Shown here: piece after piece, positions 55,382-63,941 of the stretch | How the letters are laid out: each line of letters begins with the position of its first letter | Position numbering within the stretch: position 1 is the first letter of the stretch | Assembly (NCBI GenBank): GCA_937996665.1 | Contig: CALKUU010000263.1 | Location: forward strand, 1,337 to 65,336 | Length of the DNA: 64,000 nucleotides | Direction: 5' to 3' | DNA from: an uncultured Xenococcaceae cyanobacterium | GTDB taxonomy: Bacteria; Cyanobacteriota; Cyanobacteriia; Cyanobacteriales; Xenococcaceae | The notes under the pieces: model-generated | Databases searched by the model: none | Told to the model about the DNA's origin: nothing | The model's input: the letters and a program-made list of their open reading frames with translations, nothing else | Made by a program: the position numbers and the translations under genes

Positions 55382-56332
55382 ATGAGCCCTGTAAAAACTT
55401 TAGCTAAATCTCAACTAAATACATCTTTGGCTAAACCTTTTTTAAAATGGGTCGGTGGTAAGTCTCAATTAAGAGAGCAGTTTTCTTCTTTGTACCCGAC
55501 ACAATTGAAGACAGGGGAAATTAAAAAATATTTTGAGCTTTGCACCGGAGGAGGAGCAATATTTTTTGATGTTATTCAAAAGTTTGATCTAAATCAGATA
55601 TTCCTTAATGATGTCAATCAAGATTTGATTCTTGCCTATCGGGTAATCCAGTGTCATCCTTGGGAATTAATTGCTGAACTAGTTCACTTAAAAGAAAAAT
55701 TATTTCAACTTGAGATTGAGCAAAGATCTGAGCTTTTTTACCAAATTAGAAAAGAGTATAATCAGCAGCGGATTAATTTTGATTATCAAAAGCTATCGAC
55801 AGAAGCGATTAAAAGAGTAGCTTGGTTGATCTTTATTAATAAAACTTGCTTCAATGGCTTATATAGAACCAACAAGAAAGGTGATTTTAATGCACCTTTT
55901 GGGAGATATAAAAACCCGAAAATTTGCGATCAGGAAAATCTTCTCAGAGTTTCTGAAATATTGCAGGGGGTGACTCTCGTTTCTGGTAGTTATCGCAGTT
56001 TAGATAAATTTATTGATTGTCAGTCCTTTATATATATAGATCCTCCCTATCGTCCTATTACAAAGACCGCTAATTTTACTGCTTATGCCAAGTCAAGATT
56101 TAATGATGCTAGCCAAGTCGAACTAAGTCATTACTATGCTCATTTAAGTGAAGACTATGGGGCAAAGGTGATGCTGAGTAATTCTAATCCTCATAATAGC
56201 GATCCTGTCGACGATTTTTTTCACGACCTTTATTGCGACTATAAAATTAGCGAAGTGTATGCAACTCGCATGATTAATAGCGATGCTAGTAAAAGAGGCA
56301 AAATTACTGAACTAGTAATTACTAATTATTAG
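55382..56332 (+). CDS. Dam/DpnM-family DNA adenine methyltransferase (orphan)
   Basis: KPFLKWVGGKSQL, NKTCFNGLYRTN, FNAPFG, YIDPPY, MLSNS, ELVITNY; no adjacent endonuclease. Confidence 0.88.
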   Translation: MSPVKTLAKSQLNTSLAKPFLKWVGGKSQLREQFSSLYPTQLKTGEIKKYFELCTGGGAIFFDVIQKFDLNQIFLNDVNQDLILAYRVIQCHPWELIAELVHLKEKLFQLEIEQRSELFYQIRKEYNQQRINFDYQKLSTEAIKRVAWLIFINKTCFNGLYRTNKKGDFNAPFGRYKNPKICDQENLLRVSEILQGVTLVSGSYRSLDKFIDCQSFIYIDPPYRPITKTANFTAYAKSRFNDASQVELSHYYAHLSEDYGAKVMLSNSNPHNSDPVDDFFHDLYCDYKISEVYATRMINSDASKRGKITELVITNY

Positions 56333-56467: not shown

Positions 56468-57343
56468 ATGTCTTTGAAGAAAACGACTCTGACCATTATT
56501 AAGTTAATGGTGCTGACTCCTCTGCTTTTTTATACTTGGCGATTAGCTCTCCGTCCTCTTCGCAAAGATAGTGAACAAACTTTAGCCCCTGGAGTTCATT
56601 ATCAAAAGAAAATCTATTCCCAACCTAGACCCTACATAGTTCATACCGTAGAAATTGATCTGGTTAAATCTCAAGCCAAACCCTTAGTCACTCCTGCGGG
56701 AGTTAATGGAGAAAGTAGTCTCCATAAGGCAATGTTGACCTCTAGCTTTGTTCGTAAATTCAATTTGGAGTTAGGGATAAATGGTAGTTTCTTCTATCCT
56801 TTCTACTCAAAGACTCCTTGGGAATTCTATCCGAGAAAAGCAGATGAAGTTAATGCCCTAGGCGAAAGTGTTGCTGATGGTCAGCGTTACGGCAAAGAAG
56901 AGCATAAATGGAATGTTATCTGTTTTGATCAACTGCAAAGAGTGCAGATTCCTCTGCTTAGCAAATGTCCTCAGCAGACTCCTCAGGGAATTGCTGGTTT
57001 TCAAATTTTAGTTAAAGATGGCAATTCTACTGTTGAAGATCAAGAATCCCCCTCTTATCCCCGAACTGCGATCGGGATAAATCGCCAAGGGAATAAACTT
57101 TGGTTGATTGTCGTTGATGGGAAACAACCTTTTTATAGTGAGGGGGTTACTATTTCTGAGTTGGCTAAAATCGCTGTAAATTTGGGTTGCGATCGCGCCT
57201 TAAATTTAGATGGTGGTGGTTCTACCACCTTGGTCGCTAAGCGCAAGGATCGGGTACAAGTGCTTAACTCTCCAATTCATTCCAGAATACCTATGAGAGA
57301 AAGATTTGTTGCTAATCATCTTGGTTTCGATCTAAATCCCTAA
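56468..57343 (+). CDS. Phosphodiester glycosidase (NAGPA-like) family protein
   Basis: INGSFF, YPRTAIG, VVDGKQ, ALNLDGGGSTTL. Confidence 0.9.
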   Translation: MSLKKTTLTIIKLMVLTPLLFYTWRLALRPLRKDSEQTLAPGVHYQKKIYSQPRPYIVHTVEIDLVKSQAKPLVTPAGVNGESSLHKAMLTSSFVRKFNLELGINGSFFYPFYSKTPWEFYPRKADEVNALGESVADGQRYGKEEHKWNVICFDQLQRVQIPLLSKCPQQTPQGIAGFQILVKDGNSTVEDQESPSYPRTAIGINRQGNKLWLIVVDGKQPFYSEGVTISELAKIAVNLGCDRALNLDGGGSTTLVAKRKDRVQVLNSPIHSRIPMRERFVANHLGFDLNP

Positions 57344-57769
57344 GGAAATACCTTAATCATGAGTAGAAATATCTATTCTTTTAACGGTTCGCTATTGAAC
57401 TATCTGTTTGAATTTAAGGAAGATAGTCACCCTTTGCAAAACTATTTTTTTTGTTTGTTATTTTCTCATCTAATTATTATTTGTTTTTTATCTAAAAACA
57501 GTCATTTTCTCAGCTTTTTCTCAGCTAAAAATCATGAAAAAATAAGATTGCCTGTGAGATTTAAATAACTCTTGATTGCTATTGTTATTTCATTTATTCT
57601 TTTTGCTGAATTTTTATCATTAATTGGTTGATTGCACGCTGTATTTTTTAGGTAAAATTAAGTTTATTTTGTTGTTAAAGAAGTCGGTAGGAAATCTCTC
57701 TATTTCTTGTTTAACAAGGATCTTGTTTGCCAATAGATAAAGATTAATGATTTATTTATGGGAAAATGA

Positions 57770-57887
57770 TCACTCTATTTATCAGTATTAGATCACTGAA
57801 TAACTTGTTCTTAATTACGGTTGGAATAAGTCTATAATCACTAATTTTTTGCTCTAATAATCACAATTTAAAGCAACATTAAATCAC
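57770..57887 (+). promoter_or_regulatory. Phased TCAC array (22-23 bp period) upstream of lyase copy 1
   Basis: TCAC at 57770, 57793, 57838, 57861, 57884; TTAC at 57815. Confidence 0.65.
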
Positions 57888-57967
57888 CGTAAAGTTATTG
57901 TGAAACTTTTATAAAAGTAACAAGTTAATTAAAGAAAACTTCACACGTTACTAATTAAAAGTTATTT

Positions 57968-59698
57968 ATGAGTACTCCGGTTAGCAATTCAAGTCTTTTT
58001 ACAAACGCGACTATTACTAATAGTTGGAATGGTGGTTATCGATTGGAAGTTGATATCTCCTCCGATGCTTCTGCTGAAGATTGGGAATTAAATTTTGACC
58101 TTCCATACACAATTAGAGGTGCATTCGGTGGCGTAGATTTAGTTGAAAATGGCAATGGTAGCTACAGTATTAGTGGTAATAACGCTAGAAGAAGAGATTT
58201 AGACCCCGGTGAAACGGCTAGAGCTGTATTTATCATTGATGATTTGGGTGGCGATGACATTATTCCTGAATTTAATATCTCTCCTGTTGATAGCAGTGCA
58301 GCACCTTTAACTAGTAGTGCTACAGCAGTAACAAGCTCTTTGCAGGCAGAAGATATTGTCTCAAATGCAGCAACCTCAAGTAGTCCAACTCCAGCTTCTA
58401 GCTCCACAGATACAATTACCCAGGATGTAGATACCTCAACTGATATCACTACCGAGTCATCTGATAGTTCTGTTTCCGCTTCTTCCCGTATTACTAATGA
58501 TTGGAATGGTGGCTACAGAATTGAAGTAGATATTTCCGCAGAATCAGCCGCTAGTGACTGGACATTAGATTTTGATTTTCCTTATCAAATTAGAAATGCT
58601 TTTGGAGTTGATCTAACTGATAACGGTAACGGAACCTACTCTATTAGCGGACAACGTAGTGGTCAGGATCTAAGTGCAGGTGAATCAACTAGAGCAGTAT
58701 TTATTATTGACGATGGTGGTAATAGCGCTATTGACCCTACTTTTGGTGGTGGTTCAAGCTCTGCCCCTACGGTTGCTGCTTCTCCAGTAAGCACTTCTTC
58801 TGCAAGTCCCTCACCTTCTGTAAGTACTACTCCTACAGGAAGTACACCACTTATTCCGGTTGCACAGACTCCTTTGGCAGTTGCTCAATCACCTCTAACT
58901 CAGGGTCAAGATCAGGATTTGTCTGATCAAAATCTTAGTTCTAGTGCTATTACCGTCGGATTTGAAGACCATGCTGCTGGAATTAGATATACTCAGGCAG
59001 TTCAAAGACAAGACTGGACGAATGTTCGTTTCTCTACCAATGGCATGAATGAACTTTCCCAAATCTCGAATAGATTTGCTCGTTCGGGGAATCAATCTTT
59101 GAGAATTACCTACCCTGCATCCGAGTCTAGCGGTCGGAATGCTGCGTGGATAGTTCCTGAAGAAAGAGAATACTATCTATCTTATTGGGTAAGACTAGAC
59201 GAAAACTTTGACTTTGATGGAGATAGATTTAGTGGTGGTAAGTTACCTGGACTAGGTTCTGGTGATTTATGTTCTGGTGGTCAAACCTGTGATGGCACCA
59301 ATGGATTTACATCTCGTCCACACTGGCGTGAAAATGGTAGAGCGGTTCTTTATCTATATCACCAAGATAAGCCTGGACAATTTGGTGAAGATATTCAGCT
59401 TGTTGGTCAAGACGGAGAAGATATTTTCTTCGAGCGTGGTAGATGGACAAATATTACTCAACGCGTAAGAATCAACGACCAAGGTCAGGCTAATGGTGAG
59501 GTAGATGTTTACTATGATGGCGAACATGTACTCTCTAGAGATGGGATCCGCTTTGCTAGTGATGGTTCTGGAATTGATACCGCTTACTTTAGTACTTTCC
59601 ATGGTGGAAGTGGTCCTGGTTGGACTCCTGGACAAGATACTAACGCTTACTTCGATGATTTCATTGTTTCCACTAATGCCGCTGATGTCGGTCTCTAA
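57968..59698 (+). CDS. CBM2-like x2, Ser/Thr/Pro linker, PL14-like polysaccharide lyase (copy 1)
   Basis: Two NxWNGGYxxEVDI...WxLxF...GE domains; catalytic domain FDF...GGKLPGL...GFTSRPHWR...GRWTNI...FSTFHGG. Confidence 0.75.
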   Translation: MSTPVSNSSLFTNATITNSWNGGYRLEVDISSDASAEDWELNFDLPYTIRGAFGGVDLVENGNGSYSISGNNARRRDLDPGETARAVFIIDDLGGDDIIPEFNISPVDSSAAPLTSSATAVTSSLQAEDIVSNAATSSSPTPASSSTDTITQDVDTSTDITTESSDSSVSASSRITNDWNGGYRIEVDISAESAASDWTLDFDFPYQIRNAFGVDLTDNGNGTYSISGQRSGQDLSAGESTRAVFIIDDGGNSAIDPTFGGGSSSAPTVAASPVSTSSASPSPSVSTTPTGSTPLIPVAQTPLAVAQSPLTQGQDQDLSDQNLSSSAITVGFEDHAAGIRYTQAVQRQDWTNVRFSTNGMNELSQISNRFARSGNQSLRITYPASESSGRNAAWIVPEEREYYLSYWVRLDENFDFDGDRFSGGKLPGLGSGDLCSGGQTCDGTNGFTSRPHWRENGRAVLYLYHQDKPGQFGEDIQLVGQDGEDIFFERGRWTNITQRVRINDQGQANGEVDVYYDGEHVLSRDGIRFASDGSGIDTAYFSTFHGGSGPGWTPGQDTNAYFDDFIVSTNAADVGL

Positions 59699-59976
59699 TT
59701 TTCACATCAAGAAAGAAGTTAATTTAGTAGAGAGTAACTACTTTCAATTTGAGAGAGCCTATACCGAGTTTTAAAAAATTCAATGGAATAAAACATCGCT
59801 TAACTCTCTAATCGTCTGCTTTTAGACTTATTTTAAAATAAAGACTAGCGATCGCAGTTGTCGTTATAGTCAATGAACAAGGTTTACTCGGTATTTATCA
59901 AGTTATTAGATATAGAGGGAATGTAGATTGGAATTCTCTCCCTCTATTGCAACTAATGAGTAGTCCAGACTAAAAG

Positions 59977-60082
59977 TTATTCGGTATAGACTTCTTGTTT
60001 GTAATTTTTGAGAAAAACATCTGCAAGTCGTCTTAGAGTAACCTCCCCTACTAATGCTAATTAGTGATTTTGCAATAAATGC
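59977..60082 (-). pseudogene. Remnant of the 3' end of the GT2 gene
   Basis: Aligns to 62596-62703, including the stop context AAAAGTTATTCGGTATA and a 33-bp identical block (60050-60082 = 62671-62703). Confidence 0.8.
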
Positions 60083-60203
60083 ATATATACCCTCGATAGG
60101 TTTTAGCTTCTTCTCTATATCTAATGAGCTAACTTGCTCTGATTGATAAATGATTTTGGTTGTAATACGTTGTGATTTAAGTCAGTTTTTTTTACTGTTC
60201 TTG

Positions 60204-60502
60204 TCACTTGCAAACTAGTTTGAAATCACTTTTTTGTCTGATTTTAAATACTCATGAAGTCGAACATTGATCACTATTTTAATATTTGTTCTGTCACTAT
60301 TTAATTGAGTTTTTAATCACAAAAAAAAGAGATGTTGATTACTTCTTTCGAGAGACTTGTCGCACATCAAGAATGAGATTGCAATCATTATCTCTATTGC
60401 TTGCTGTCACTGCATTTCTGCTTTTCAAATCACGATTAAAATAAGCTTTTGGTCACCTTTATTTTGTCTTGATAATCACAACTTGAAACAACATCAAATC
60501 AC
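60204..60502 (+). promoter_or_regulatory. Phased TCAC array (22-23 bp period) upstream of lyase copy 2
   Basis: Exact TCAC at 60204, 60226, 60271, 60294, 60317, 60407, 60430, 60453, 60476, 60499; in-phase variants at 60248, 60339, 60362, 60385. Confidence 0.8.
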
Positions 60503-60582
60503 CGTAAAGTTATCGTAAAACTTTTATAAAGGTAATAAGTTAATGAAAGAAAAATTCACAAGTTACTAATTAAAAGTTATTT

Positions 60583-62292
60583 ATGATTACTCAAGTAGAT
60601 AATTCGAATCTTTTTACAAACGCTACTATTACTAATAGTTGGAATGGTGGTTATAAGTTAGTAGTAGATATTACCTCAGACTCTACGGTTGACGATTGGA
60701 TCTTGAACTTCGACCTTCCCCACACGATTAGAGGCGCATATGGTGGAATAGATTTAGTTGACAATGGCAATGGTAGCTATAGCATCAGCGGAAATAATGC
60801 AAGAAGAAGAGATTTAGACCCAGGTGAAACTGCTAGAGCTGTTTTTATTATTGATTATGCTGATGGTGAGGACATAATTCCTGAATTTAATATTGATCCT
60901 CTTTTAAACCGTTCTTCAGCAGTAACAAGCTCCTTACAAGCAGAAGATATTGTTTCAAACGCAGTAGCCTCAAATAGTTCAACTCCAGTTTCTAGTTCCA
61001 CAGATACAATTACCCAAGATGTAGATACTTCCGCTGATATAGCTACTGAGTCATCTGATAGTCCTGTGTCCGCTTCTTCTCGTATTACTAACGATTGGAA
61101 CGGTGGTTATAAAATTGAAGTAGATATTTCCGCAGAATCAGCTACTGATGACTGGACATTAAACTTTGATTTTCCTTATCAAATTAGAAATGCTTATGGA
61201 GTAGATCTGACTGATAACGGAAACGGAACCTACTCTATTAGTGGTCAACGTAGTGGTCAGGATCTAAGTGCAGGGGAATCAACTAGAGCAGTATTCATAA
61301 TTAATGATGGTGGTAATGATGCTGTTGCACCTACTTTTGGTGGTGGTTCAAGCTCTGCCCCTGCGGTTGTTGCTTCTCCAGTAAGTACTCCTGTGGCTAG
61401 TCCTGCTCCTTCTGTAACGACTACGCCAGCAGTAAGCGCACCAATTATGCCAGTTGTACAGGCTCCCTTAGCAGTTGCAGAGTCGCCTCTAGCTCAGGGT
61501 CAAGATCAGGATCTATCAAATCAAAATCTTAGCTCTAGTGCCATCACAGTAGGGTTTGAACGCCATAACGTAGGAACAAGATATACTCAAGCCGTTCAAA
61601 GACTGGATTGGGCAAATCCTCGTTTCTCTACTAATGGAATGAATGACCTTTCTCAAATCTCGAATAGATTTGCTCGTTCTGGGAATCAATCTTTGAGAAT
61701 TACCTATCCGTCATCTGAGTCTAGCGGTCGGAATGCTGCTTGGGTAGTTCCTGAAGAGAAAGAATACTATCTATCCTATTGGGTAAGACTAGACGAAAAC
61801 TTTGACTTTGATGGAGATAGATTTAGTGGTGGTAAATTGCCTGGACTAGGTGCTGGTGATTTATGTTCTGGTGGTCAAACTTGTAATGGAACTAACGGAT
61901 TTACATCTCGTCCTCACTGGCGCGAAAATGGTAGAGCGGTTCTTTATCTATATCACCAAGATAAGCCCGGAAGATTTGGAGAAGACATTCAACTGGTTGG
62001 TCAAGATGGTAACGATATCTTCTTTGAGCGTGGTAGATGGACAAATATTACTCAACGAGTAAGAATCAACGACCAAGGTCAGAGAAATGGTTCTGTCGAT
62101 GTCTATTATGATGGCGAGCATGTTCTATCGAGAGATGGTTTACGCTTTGCTAGTGATGGTTCTGGAATTGATACCGCTTACTTTAGTACTTTCCATGGTG
62201 GAAGTGGCCCTGGTTGGACTCCTGGACAAGATACTAACGCTTACTTCGATGATTTCATTGTTTCCACTAATGCGGCTGATGTCGGTCTCTAA
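60583..62292 (+). CDS. CBM2-like x2, Ser/Thr/Pro linker, PL14-like polysaccharide lyase (copy 2)
   Basis: Same architecture and motifs as 57968-59698; high amino-acid identity. Confidence 0.75.
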   Translation: MITQVDNSNLFTNATITNSWNGGYKLVVDITSDSTVDDWILNFDLPHTIRGAYGGIDLVDNGNGSYSISGNNARRRDLDPGETARAVFIIDYADGEDIIPEFNIDPLLNRSSAVTSSLQAEDIVSNAVASNSSTPVSSSTDTITQDVDTSADIATESSDSPVSASSRITNDWNGGYKIEVDISAESATDDWTLNFDFPYQIRNAYGVDLTDNGNGTYSISGQRSGQDLSAGESTRAVFIINDGGNDAVAPTFGGGSSSAPAVVASPVSTPVASPAPSVTTTPAVSAPIMPVVQAPLAVAESPLAQGQDQDLSNQNLSSSAITVGFERHNVGTRYTQAVQRLDWANPRFSTNGMNDLSQISNRFARSGNQSLRITYPSSESSGRNAAWVVPEEKEYYLSYWVRLDENFDFDGDRFSGGKLPGLGAGDLCSGGQTCNGTNGFTSRPHWRENGRAVLYLYHQDKPGRFGEDIQLVGQDGNDIFFERGRWTNITQRVRINDQGQRNGSVDVYYDGEHVLSRDGLRFASDGSGIDTAYFSTFHGGSGPGWTPGQDTNAYFDDFIVSTNAADVGL

Positions 62293-62595
62293 TTTTCACA
62301 TCAAGAAAGAAGTTAATTTAGCAGAGAGTAACTACTTTCAACTCAAGAGATTCTTTATCGAGTTTTCAAAAGTTCAATTGGAATAAAACATCGCTTAATT
62401 CTCTAGTTATTCCTTTTTACACTTAGACGTTTACGTAAATTTAAAGACTAGCGATCGCAGTTGTCGCTATTGTCTGTAAAGCAGGTTTATCCGGTATTTA
62501 TCAAGTCATTAAATAATAGAGGGAATGTACCTGGAAATTGTTTCCCTCTATTAAAACCACAACTATTACAACTAAAAAATAGTACAAGCAAAAAG

Positions 62596-63528
62596 TTATT
62601 CGGTATACACTTCATGTTTGTAGTCTTGATAAAACACTCCCACAAGTCCCCCTAGGGTACCCATTCCCTGACTAATGCTAATTAGTGATTTTGCAATAAA
62701 TGCTTTACCCATTACCAATGAAGGAATTAAGCGAAAGATACCGATAAAAATGAGAGCAAATCCTTTGAGAAGGCGTATGAATTGAGTTGCAATTGAAGGA
62801 TACAATTCCATTTCAAAAGCACTGTAATTACTCCACATACGATAAGAGCGAAATAAAATCCACTTTAACTTGGTACGAGAAGCGGGGATATCATCATAAA
62901 CAACTGCATTATCTGCCCAAACTATTTTGTGACCTGCTTTAGTCAGATTCAAAAATAAATAAGAATCAGAGCCTCCAGATAAAGCGAAACGATGATCAAA
63001 GACGGGATTTAACTCCCGCAGGATATCGGCTTTGATCATTACGTTATTCGTGAAGGCTACTTCCTTCTCTTCCCCATCCTGATAACGTGGAGCCTCAAAA
63101 TATCCACAATTAAGAATCCATTCAGGAGCATGATTATCCTCAAAAATTGGCACTGCTGGACCTGTCACAATAGCTGCACCATGCTCTTGCTGTGCTACCA
63201 ACAGCTCTTCTAGCCAATTCTTCTCTGGAATTTCATCATCGTCAACAATAACTATAAAGTCGGAATTTTCAGAGGTCAGGGATATTGATTTATTCCGTGC
63301 ATAAGTTATCCCTCGCTGGGGTTCAACATCTGTCTTGAGAGTCCACTGAAATTCTGGTTCGATCTCAGCACAAACTTTTTTTGCTATCCCAGCATTGTCA
63401 TTATCAACAACTATAACCTCAATGTCGGGACGTTCAATTTTAGTAAAGGTCAACTTATTTAATCCCTTTAGTAAAAGCTTTAATCCTTTTTCCCTTTTGT
63501 AAGTTATTACGCATACCGAAATTAGCAT
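62596..63528 (-). CDS. GT2 family glycosyltransferase (start revised to the ATG at 63528)
   Basis: MLISVCVITY, VIVVDND, GITYARN, FIVIVDDDE, GGSDSYLF. Confidence 0.88.
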   Translation of the reverse strand: MLISVCVITYKREKGLKLLLKGLNKLTFTKIERPDIEVIVVDNDNAGIAKKVCAEIEPEFQWTLKTDVEPQRGITYARNKSISLTSENSDFIVIVDDDEIPEKNWLEELLVAQQEHGAAIVTGPAVPIFEDNHAPEWILNCGYFEAPRYQDGEEKEVAFTNNVMIKADILRELNPVFDHRFALSGGSDSYLFLNLTKAGHKIVWADNAVVYDDIPASRTKLKWILFRSYRMWSNYSAFEMELYPSIATQFIRLLKGFALIFIGIFRLIPSLVMGKAFIAKSLISISQGMGTLGGLVGVFYQDYKHEVYTE

Positions 63529-63941
63529 AGCAGTTAATTTTTGTTGTTGTTGATGTTGGTTCTGATGAATATATTTTAGTTCAAATTTCGTTGGAATTAA
63601 GTAGGCATTATGTAAATTACTATACAAAAAGAACAATCTATGAATCTAGAAAATCTAGTAAATATCCGCTTGCCTAAATCAACATAATTTGAATCAATAA
63701 ATGATCCTCAACCTTGTCTTTAATGTTCTGCTGAAGAATAATCAACAATCACCAAGAAATCTAAGACGATTTCCGCAAAATCAGATTAAATGTCAATTAT
63801 TTTTTGCGGCTTTTATTTTTCAGAAGAATTATCCTCTGTTACTTTTACTATCAAAGATAATGCAAGTGAAGTAACTATAAATAGCTGACTGTGTTGTTGC
63901 TTATTTATGTTGAAAAATTTTTCTTGAGAAAAGCCTACAAT

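What the first reader, a model, noticed from the sequence alone, without database searches (positions are those of the whole stretch)
60182..60560. About 14-slot, 300-bp array of TCAC tetramers phased every 22-23 bp with unique spacers
Exact TCAC at 60204, 60226, 60271, 60294, 60317, 60407, 60430, 60453, 60476, 60499, with the empty slots filled in phase by ATAC (60248), TTAC (60339), GCAC (60362), TCAT (60385), and TCAG at 60182. Gaps are always 22 or 23. About one TCAC would be expected by chance in 300 bp of this composition; here ten occur, all in register and on one strand. The spacers are unrelated to each other, so this is neither a tandem repeat nor CRISPR. A period just over two helical turns puts sites on nearly the same face with a slow twist, as expected for a protein polymerising along or wrapping the DNA. 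Possibilities are a cooperative regulator or silencer platform, a nucleoprotein enhancer that counts occupancy, or a centromere/iteron-like site (all inference). Several slots (TTTTGGTCAC, TTGATCAC, TTGATTAC) loosely resemble the TTTTG(A/T)TNAC motif I recall for Synechocystis LexA, which should be verified. I know of no described cyanobacterial promoter with this architecture.
Basis: partly seen in the sequence, partly recalled or inferred. Interest (0 to 1): 0.85.

Follow-up and report, generated by a model that had tools for sequence, protein, structure and literature searches.

The report
Giant phased TCAC promoter array
A row of fifteen evenly spaced TCAC docking sites sits in front of a polysaccharide-lyase gene; it is the longest example seen here of a promoter layout found in many cyanobacteria that I could not find described, and it probably lets one regulator switch the gene on cooperatively.

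Summary
Ten exact TCAC and five one-mismatch slots lie on the + strand from 60182 to 60502, with a period of 22.68 bp. The best of 20,000 shuffles gave a chain of 4, against 10 observed. Apart from a six-slot copy before the tandem paralog (57770-57887), no other such chain exists in the 4.1-Mb genome.

It is not a tandem repeat, a CRISPR array, an iteron set or an RNA family. Both arrays share three features. They start at an imperfect GTGA-N6-TCAC palindrome. They run on the sense strand. They end with a TCAC exactly 26 nt before a -10 box (TATAAA), which would centre a 22-bp CRP-type site at about -41.5.

The same layout, with 3-6 slots, occurs in 61 of 401 sampled cyanobacterial genomes and never in a reversed-pattern control. 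It mostly precedes small-protein genes. TCAC cores are conserved while spacers drift: 0/28 against 37/235 variable positions here, and 0/12 against 28/53 in 29 Microcoleus genomes. Orthologous lyase promoters keep the proximal TCAC and -10 box but have only 1-3 slots.

Best reading: a cooperative activator platform, probably for a CRP-family regulator, greatly expanded in this lineage. The LexA and centromere ideas are not supported. The binding protein and the transcription start site were not determined.

The parts
60172..60185 (+). Distal imperfect palindrome GTGAtttaagTCAG (GTGA-N6-TCAG), the upstream boundary of the array
   Evidence: GTGA occurs only twice in 59700-60600, and once exactly 10 nt before slot 1. 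All 52 arrays inspected in other genomes start with GTGA-N6-TCAC, but that is by construction: the palindrome was part of the search pattern for 50 of them, and it was seen independently only in L025 and L076.
60182..60502 (+). 15-slot array of RTCAC half-sites, period 22.68 bp (10 exact, 5 with one mismatch)
   Evidence: Among diverged strains, 0 of 28 core positions vary against 37 of 235 other positions (Fisher p=0.011), and there are no indels.
60499..60502 (+). Promoter-proximal half-site TCAC, about -38 to -35. A 22-bp CRP-type site with this right half would be centred near -41.5.
   Evidence: It lies 26 nt before the -10 box, as in 32 arrays of other genomes. It is conserved in three paralogs and in orthologs of 44-49% protein identity.
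60525..60530 (+). Predicted -10 box TATAAA. The transcription start is inferred near 60537 and has not been mapped.
   Evidence: TATAAAGG is conserved in all PL14 ortholog promoters. No sigma-70 -35 consensus lies upstream.
60556..60559 (+). Out-of-phase TCAC in the predicted 5' leader; not a slot
   Evidence: It lies 57 bp after the last slot and downstream of the -10 box. Its counterpart is at 57941.
60583..62292 (+). Lyase gene copy 2 (569 aa; two CBM2-like modules plus a PL14 domain)
   Evidence: Pfam PF00553 and PF21294.
57760..57773 (+). Distal imperfect palindrome GGGAaaatgaTCAC of the copy-1 array
57770..57887 (+). Six-slot array before lyase copy 1: TCAC at 57770, 57793, 57838, 57861, 57884, and TTAC at 57815-57818 (within the ATTAC that I logged from 57816)
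   Evidence: The four proximal slots are homologous to 60430-60502. Further out the spacers diverge but the phase is kept.
57910..57915 (+). Predicted -10 box TATAAA of copy 1, 26 nt after the last TCAC
57968..59698 (+). Lyase gene copy 1 (576 aa, 86% identical to copy 2)

Best explanation
The array is the upstream control region of an activator-dependent promoter. A dimeric helix-turn-helix regulator, most likely a CRP/FNR-family protein that recognises TGTGA-N6-TCACA, would bind first at the distal near-palindrome. It would then fill, cooperatively and in one direction, a row of abutting 22-23-bp sites in which only the promoter-proximal half-site (RTCAC) is specified. The last site is centred at about -41.5, where such a protein contacts RNA polymerase at a promoter that has a -10 box but no -35 box. 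Many weak sites filled cooperatively would give a sharp, high-threshold switch for the two polysaccharide-lyase genes. What is shown: the phasing, its uniqueness in this genome, conservation of the cores, the fixed geometry relative to the -10 box, recurrence of the design in other cyanobacteria, and its expansion here from 1-3 slots to 6 and 15. What is inferred: that a protein binds, that it activates, that binding is cooperative and directional, and that the protein is CRP-type. I put the CRP identity at about 0.4 on its own.
For: 1. Statistics and uniqueness of the array.
2. Geometry: both arrays end with TCAC 26 nt before TATAAA. In 32 arrays from other genomes, the same offset shows a conserved sATrnT -10 box (A27 in 26/32, T28 in 25/32, T31 in 26/32).
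3. The design GTGA-N6-TCAC plus two or more TCAC at 22/23 bp is found in 61 of 401 cyanobacterial genomes, with 0 hits of the reversed control. It is always on the sense strand of a downstream gene.
4. Flanks match the CRP consensus GTGAT....ATCACA: T after GTGA in 69%, purine before TCAC in 85% of inner slots, A after TCAC in 48%. The unit length equals the 22-bp CRP site.
5. Cyanobacterial CRP-activated promoters are reported to carry a TAN3T box about 22 bp after the site (PMC2633013).
6. Constraint: cores versus spacers give p=0.011 here and p=4.6e-4 in an orthologous Microcoleus array whose slots 3-5 were not used to find it; there are no indels in either array.
7. The proximal RTCAC and TATAAAGG are conserved in PL14 orthologs with 1-3 slots.
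8. The genome encodes a CRP-family protein with an RETVTR recognition helix. It also has a small excess of canonical TGTGA-N6-TCACA (3 against 0-1) and GTGAT-N4-ATCAC (8 against 1-3).
9. A precedent for activation by abutting low-affinity dimer sites that reach the -35 region is MntR at mneP (bioRxiv 10.1101/2024.06.28.601288).
Against: - No binding, transcription-start or expression data exist for this locus; no RNA run holds it.
- CRP dimers are not known to polymerise along single half-sites, and the left half-site position in inner slots is near background.
- Both distal palindromes here carry one mismatch.
- This genome has no other array and no homolog of the small proteins that dominate the design elsewhere. 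No array was found in 60 other genomes of the same family.
- The RETVTR protein has orthologs in almost all non-picocyanobacteria, including lineages without arrays, so its distribution does not discriminate.
- In PL14 orthologs the proximal site reads TCAC-N-GTGA, a different symmetry from CRP sites.
- RNA-run contigs in Microcoleus are ambiguous: one run's contigs begin 10-12 nt after the predicted start at two arrays, while other runs span the array.
Confidence: 0.55

Rival explanations
1. The architecture and logic are the same, but the binding protein is not CRP-type. It could be a lambda-CI/XRE-like or LexA-like dimer, whose operators have one conserved ATCAC-type half and sit 23-24 bp apart. 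It could also be a winged-helix or AraC-type protein binding head-to-tail as monomers, with the distal palindrome acting as an inverted cap.
For: Only one half-site per slot is conserved. The PL14 core promoters carry TCAC-N-GTGA, and paralog C14 carries ATCAC-N6-GTGAT; both are everted relative to CRP sites. A LexA homolog is present in the genome. The published LexA-associated word TTTTG(A/T)TNAC ends in TNAC. From my own knowledge, lambda OR/OL operators are spaced 23-24 bp, and CI at OR2 activates PRM from about -42.
Against: The distal palindrome has CRP orientation, spacing and flanks. The LexA word fits 0 of 21 slots exactly, and its T-run is absent from arrays in other genomes. No regulator gene is linked to any of the 52 arrays inspected.
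Confidence: 0.27
2. Only the proximal one to three sites work. The other slots are relics of local duplications of a 23-bp unit that are decaying, or they act as a passive sink or silencer, and they do not contribute to activation.
For: Orthologous promoters manage with 1-3 slots. Four of the five degenerate slots are central (60248 and 60339-60385). Two of these, 60248 and 60362, also change in other strains. The spacers share a weak common pattern (z=5), as old duplicates would.
Against: The distal exact cores (60204-60317) show no substitution in strains that are 11-15% diverged, and the phase is kept without indels. The distal end carries the palindrome typical of the design. No pair of units aligns better than chance, and adjacent units are no more alike than distant ones.
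Confidence: 0.12
3. It is a plasmid-type iteron set or a partition centromere.
For: The 22-23-bp period is typical of iterons (my own knowledge). An inverted repeat shares the repeat's core.
Against: The neighbours are chromosomal housekeeping genes (panB, a sigma factor, a rhodanese-domain protein), and there is no rep or par gene. Two copies each abut the -10 box of paralogous enzyme genes. The units are not alignable outside 5 nt. The same design precedes more than 50 unrelated genes elsewhere.
Confidence: 0.02
4. It is an RNA-level element: UCAC repeats in a long 5' leader that are bound by an RNA-binding protein.
For: All motifs lie on the sense strand.
Against: The array lies upstream of a conserved -10 box at a fixed distance. 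There is no Rfam match. No promoter-like site was found upstream of the array. In one RNA run, contigs start after the -10 box at two arrays of the design.
Confidence: 0.03

Closest known systems
CRP/FNR class II activated promoters (E. coli CRP; Synechocystis SyCRP1, Anabaena AnCrpA; NtcA promoters)
   Same: The half-site is (A)TCAC(A). The distal element is a GTGA-N6-TCAC palindrome. The unit is 22 bp. The last site is centred near -41.5, with a TAN3T-type -10 box about 22 bp downstream and no -35 box (PMC2633013).
   Different: Known promoters have one full palindrome, or a few that are well separated. Here up to 15 abutting units carry a single specified half-site, all in one orientation. 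Binding by a CRP protein has not been tested.
MntR activation of mneP/mneS in Bacillus subtilis
   Same: An array of abutting low-affinity dimer sites whose last member overlaps the -35 region. Cooperative filling gives a high-threshold switch (bioRxiv 10.1101/2024.06.28.601288).
   Different: MntR has four full 18-bp inverted-repeat sites with a 19-bp period, and it belongs to the DtxR family. Here the period is 22-23 bp, only half-sites are specified, there are up to 15 units, and a distinct nucleating palindrome sits at the far end.
Lambda OR/OL operator triplets
   Same: The conserved operator half contains ATCAC. Centre-to-centre spacing is 23-24 bp. Neighbouring dimers bind cooperatively, and activation occurs from about -42 (my own knowledge).
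   Different: Lambda has three sites, the repressor gene is adjacent, and the half-sites are everted (TCAC...GTGA). None of these apply here.
Plasmid iterons (RK2, pPS10, F, P1)
   Same: Direct repeats spaced 22-23 bp, plus an inverted repeat that shares the repeat's core (my own knowledge).
   Different: In iterons the whole 17-22-bp unit is conserved, and they lie next to a rep gene and an AT-rich unwinding region. Here only about 5 nt are conserved, the locus is chromosomal, and the array is tied to a promoter.
PhoB pho boxes in tandem (E. coli pstS, ugpB)
   Same: 22-bp units containing TGTCAC/T replace the -35 box and can be repeated in tandem (my own knowledge).
   Different: Each pho box has two 11-bp direct repeats and no palindrome. 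Cyanobacterial Pho boxes have a different sequence.

Membership tests
   Gaps in other genomes are 22 (60 times) and 23 (39 times).
   TATAAA at 60525 and at 57910.
   Each array has one mismatch: GTGA-N6-TCAG at 60172 and GGGA-N6-TCAC at 57760.
   Here there are 15 and 6 slots, the start codon is 84 nt after the last TCAC, and the genes encode enzymes of about 570 aa. I therefore call it a variant.
CRP/FNR class II promoter | Site with TGTGA-N6-TCACA symmetry centred at -41.5 relative to a mapped transcription start | tested here: inconclusive
   The proximal slot has only the right half-site. The position relative to the -10 box fits, but the start is not mapped.
CRP/FNR class II promoter | Bound and activated by a CRP-family protein | not testable with these tools
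   A candidate with an RETVTR recognition helix exists (C184), but its phyletic profile is uninformative.
Plasmid iterons / partition centromere | Alignable repeat units of 17 bp or more, next to rep or par genes on a replicon | tested here: not met
   units not alignable; chromosomal neighbours.
Tandem repeat / minisatellite | Head-to-tail copies at least about 70% alike | tested here: not met
   TRF reports 0 rows. The maximum spacer similarity is not above that of shuffles.
CRISPR array | Conserved repeats of 23 nt or more separated by unique spacers | tested here: not met
   The conserved part is only 4-5 nt.
Synechocystis LexA-associated motif TTTTG(A/T)TNAC | Slots match the 10-mer | tested here: not met
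   0 of 21 slots match exactly, 3 of 21 within one mismatch, and the median is 3 mismatches. The motif itself comes from MEME on four fragments.
Known RNA families (Rfam 15) | Covariance-model match | tested here: not met
   Only two chance-level hits, E about 0.7.

The most novel reading that the evidence does not exclude
Cyanobacteria may use an undescribed mode of promoter control. A CRP-type regulator would nucleate at one palindrome and then polymerise in one direction along phase-locked single half-sites, spaced 22.4-22.7 bp and rotating about 58 degrees per step, until it reaches -41.5. The number of slots would set the threshold and steepness of the response. The 15-slot lyase promoter would be its extreme form, a nucleoprotein filament making more than two superhelical turns. 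The 1-, 2-, 6- and 15-slot versions of one core promoter would form a natural series for testing this.
Probability: 0.3. Interest if true: 0.8.

Novelty: new variant of a known kind. Interest (0 to 1): 0.62.

Why it matters
If the reading is right, a simple and countable DNA feature, the number of phased half-sites, tunes how a regulator switches genes in a major group of photosynthetic bacteria. The design marks a regulon of mostly uncharacterised small proteins and sensor proteins. In this organism it controls enzymes that cut extracellular polysaccharide next to an EPS-synthesis locus, so it bears on surface, biofilm or sheath remodelling. The natural 1-, 2-, 6- and 15-slot versions of the same core promoter make cooperative, threshold-setting promoter architecture directly testable. 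They could also supply tunable parts for cyanobacterial synthetic biology.

Tried and rejected
- TRF and Rfam found nothing.
- The scan of 60 genomes of the same family for four phased TCAC found none.
- PL14-homolog loci of relatives showed no chains within 1.5 kb.
- The JGI metagenome scan for lyase relatives found none.
- No RNA run holds the locus, so the transcription start could not be mapped.
- Logan contigs from Microcoleus RNA runs gave only a weak hint about the start.
- The five-TCAC scan of all genomes was swamped by true tandem repeats, but it yielded the first two cyanobacterial arrays.
- The phyletic profile of the RETVTR CRP homolog is too broad to discriminate.
- The cluster look-up gave no organism names. 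Lineage hints come only from the names of lyase homologs (Pleurocapsales/Xenococcaceae-like).
- The small proteins downstream of arrays have no Pfam or NCBIfam family.
- The TAACTGA heptamer repeats of PMC4679880 are a different phenomenon.
- Five literature searches found no description of the design.
- I considered transposon-end (Tn7/CAST TnsB) sites and parS, and rejected both because of the fixed promoter geometry and the lack of transposase or ParB context.

Full report
**Observation**

The + strand between 60182 and 60502 carries ten exact TCAC and five in-phase one-mismatch tetramers. Every gap is 22 or 23 bp. A linear fit gives a period of 22.68 bp with residuals of 0.5 bp. The 884-bp intergenic region holds 12 TCAC where 2.9 are expected. 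The in-phase chain of 10 compares with a maximum of 4 in 20,000 shuffles. Scanning both strands of the whole 4.15-Mb assembly, this is the only place with four or more TCAC at 22-23 bp. Control spacings (18-34 bp) gave at most isolated chains of 3-4.

TRF finds no tandem repeat and Rfam finds nothing. The spacers share a weak positional bias: T-rich, a purine at -1, and G at -8 and -10 (z=5). No two units align better than shuffled ones, and neighbouring units are no more alike than distant ones. The observation therefore stands, and the 'decayed alignable tandem repeat' refutation fails.

**A second array and the promoter geometry**

Allowing skipped slots, the genome scan found one more chain, 57770-57887. 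It lies in front of the neighbouring gene. The two genes are 86% identical paralogs of about 570 aa, each with two CBM2-like modules and a PL14 polysaccharide-lyase domain. Their upstream regions align well for about 190 bp. Further out, the tetramers and the phase persist while the spacers diverge.

In both genes the last TCAC lies exactly 26 nt before TATAAA (60525 and 57910). No sigma-70 -35 consensus is present. A third paralog, at the start of contig C14, has the same TCAC-26 nt-TATAAA core. Both arrays begin with a near-palindrome: GTGA-N6-TCAG at 60172 and GGGA-N6-TCAC at 57760.

**The same layout elsewhere**

A scan of one genome per species for five phased TCAC returned mostly true tandem repeats. 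Two cyanobacterial MAGs, however, had unique spacers, and both arrays started with GTGATTTGAATCAC.

I then searched 401 genomes of the phylum for GTGA-N6-TCAC-N18/19-TCAC-N18/19-TCAC. It occurs in 61 genomes, up to about ten times per genome, and the reversed control pattern never occurs. The richest genus is Microcoleus (named through).

Across 52 arrays inspected:
- Slot numbers are 3-6.
- Gaps are 22 (60 times) or 23 (39 times).
- The base before TCAC is a purine.
- GTGA is followed by T, as in the CRP consensus GTGAT....ATCACA.
- The last TCAC is followed at +26 by a conserved sATrnT -10 box.
- Where a downstream ORF was called, its start codon usually lies 57-69 nt after the last TCAC (about two-thirds of cases); the rest lie 40-300 nt away.
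- Downstream genes are mostly 60-90-aa helical proteins without any Pfam or NCBIfam family, plus some PAS or GGDEF-type sensors.

**What is special here**

This genome has no other array, no enrichment of bare GTGA-N6-TCAC, and no detectable homolog of the small proteins. No array was found in 60 other genomes of its family.

Lyase orthologs of 44-49% identity come from genomes whose names suggest Pleurocapsales/Xenococcaceae. They keep the lyase-GT2-flippase synteny and a strikingly conserved core promoter, RTCAC(n)GTGA ... TATAAAGG, but they have only 1-3 slots. The link between a TCAC site at this position and the lyase gene is therefore old. The 6- and 15-slot arrays are expansions in this lineage and are the longest seen here.

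**Evidence of constraint**

Contigs from other metagenome runs (X4-X7) carry a strain that is 11-15% diverged across the array. Of the positions that differ, 37 fall in 235 non-core positions and none in 28 exact-core positions (Fisher p=0.011). There are no indels in the array. Two degenerate slots (60248 and 60362) do change.

For an unbiased test of the design, I collected one orthologous five-slot array from 29 Microcoleus genomes, using a pattern that covers only slots 1-2. Slots 3-5 show 0 of 12 variable core columns against 28 of 53 other columns (p=4.6e-4), again without indels.

**Mechanism**

With the -10 box at -12 to -7, the last TCAC occupies about -38 to -35. A 22-bp CRP-type site with that right half would be centred at -41.5, the class II position. 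Cyanobacterial CRP-activated promoters are reported to have a TAN3T box about 22 bp after the site (PMC2633013).

The genome encodes ten CRP/FNR proteins. One has the CRP-like RETVTR recognition helix. There is also a small excess of canonical TGTGA-N6-TCACA palindromes.

I therefore favour a CRP-family dimer that nucleates at the palindrome and cooperatively fills abutting units specified by one half-site, with the last dimer contacting RNA polymerase. A documented precedent for activation through an array of abutting weak dimer sites reaching the -35 region is MntR at mneP: four 18-bp sites, 1 bp apart, giving a cooperative, high-threshold response.

All of this is inference. No binding or expression data exist for this locus. 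The left half-site is at background in inner slots. The RETVTR protein is nearly universal in non-picocyanobacteria, so its distribution cannot confirm the link. The proximal TCAC-N-GTGA in lyase orthologs has a symmetry that CRP sites lack. In one RNA run, contigs begin 10-12 nt after the predicted start at two Microcoleus arrays. Other runs span the array, and contigs cannot show depth.

**Rivals**

- A different regulator family (CI/XRE-like, LexA-like, or monomeric winged-helix) remains quite possible.
However, no slot matches it exactly, and its T-run is absent from arrays in other genomes.
- A reading in which only the proximal sites work and the rest are relics is weakened by the intact distal cores and the preserved phase.
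- The iteron/centromere and RNA-leader readings are contradicted by the chromosomal context and by the fixed distance to a conserved -10 box.

**Novelty and verdict**

Five full-text searches found no description of a palindrome followed by phased single half-sites in cyanobacteria. Absence from the subscription literature cannot be excluded. I class the finding as a new variant of a known kind, namely activator-dependent class II-type promoters with cooperative site arrays. It is of clear but not exceptional interest. Its value lies in the extreme slot number and in the natural 1-, 2-, 6- and 15-slot series on one conserved core promoter.

Noticed in passing
L231-L235 upstream regions; G000 contig C14:1-110; window 60499-60512: The core promoter of PL14 lyase orthologs carries a tight palindrome TCAC-N-GTGA (gTCACtGTGAa). 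Paralog C14 has ATCAC-N6-GTGAT. The window copies read TCACcGTAA. This symmetry differs from the distal GTGA-N6-TCAC and remains unexplained.
   Followed up: partly
Loci L146-L201 (for example L151, L162, L168); window 60537-60545: About 10 nt after the -10 box, arrays in other genomes show a conserved TCGAGTTCA motif at +39 to +47 from the last TCAC. The lyase promoters have AAGTTAA about 3 nt closer. This could be the context of the transcription start, a second protein site, or a leader motif.
   Followed up: no
Loci L146, L151, L163, L166, L168, L183, L189, L200 and L025: A superfamily of 65-72-aa proteins (...ADRYGLMAA...EE..IDRLLR...GR.VV) without any Pfam or NCBIfam model is the commonest gene behind the arrays in other cyanobacteria. 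No homolog was detected in this genome.
   Followed up: partly
window 56468-63636: The two lyase genes sit between a phosphodiester glycosidase (NAGPA) gene and a convergent GT2 glycosyltransferase. In orthologous loci the order lyase-GT2-Wzx flippase is conserved, so this is an EPS locus. The lyase N-termini show no obvious signal peptide.
   Followed up: partly
window 55382-56332: A D12-class N6-adenine DNA methyltransferase gene lies 1.4 kb upstream of the first array. Three slots read GATCAC (57769, 57792, 60270), so adenine methylation could overlap some half-sites.
   Followed up: no
window 60556-60559 and 57941-57944: A TCAC lies in the predicted 5' leader of both paralogs, 57 bp (2.5 periods) after the last slot. 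It is conserved between the copies but out of phase.
   Followed up: no
G000 contigs C25:8319, C279:1422, C239:14322: The genome contains three perfect canonical CRP palindromes TGTGA-N6-TCACA (controls give 0-1). They are candidate ordinary targets of the RETVTR CRP homolog.
   Followed up: no
window 59925-59956: An inverted repeat, AGAGGGA...TCTCCCTCT, lies in the spacer between lyase copy 1 and the array, near a HIP1 site (59849-59856). It may be a terminator without a T-run.
   Followed up: no
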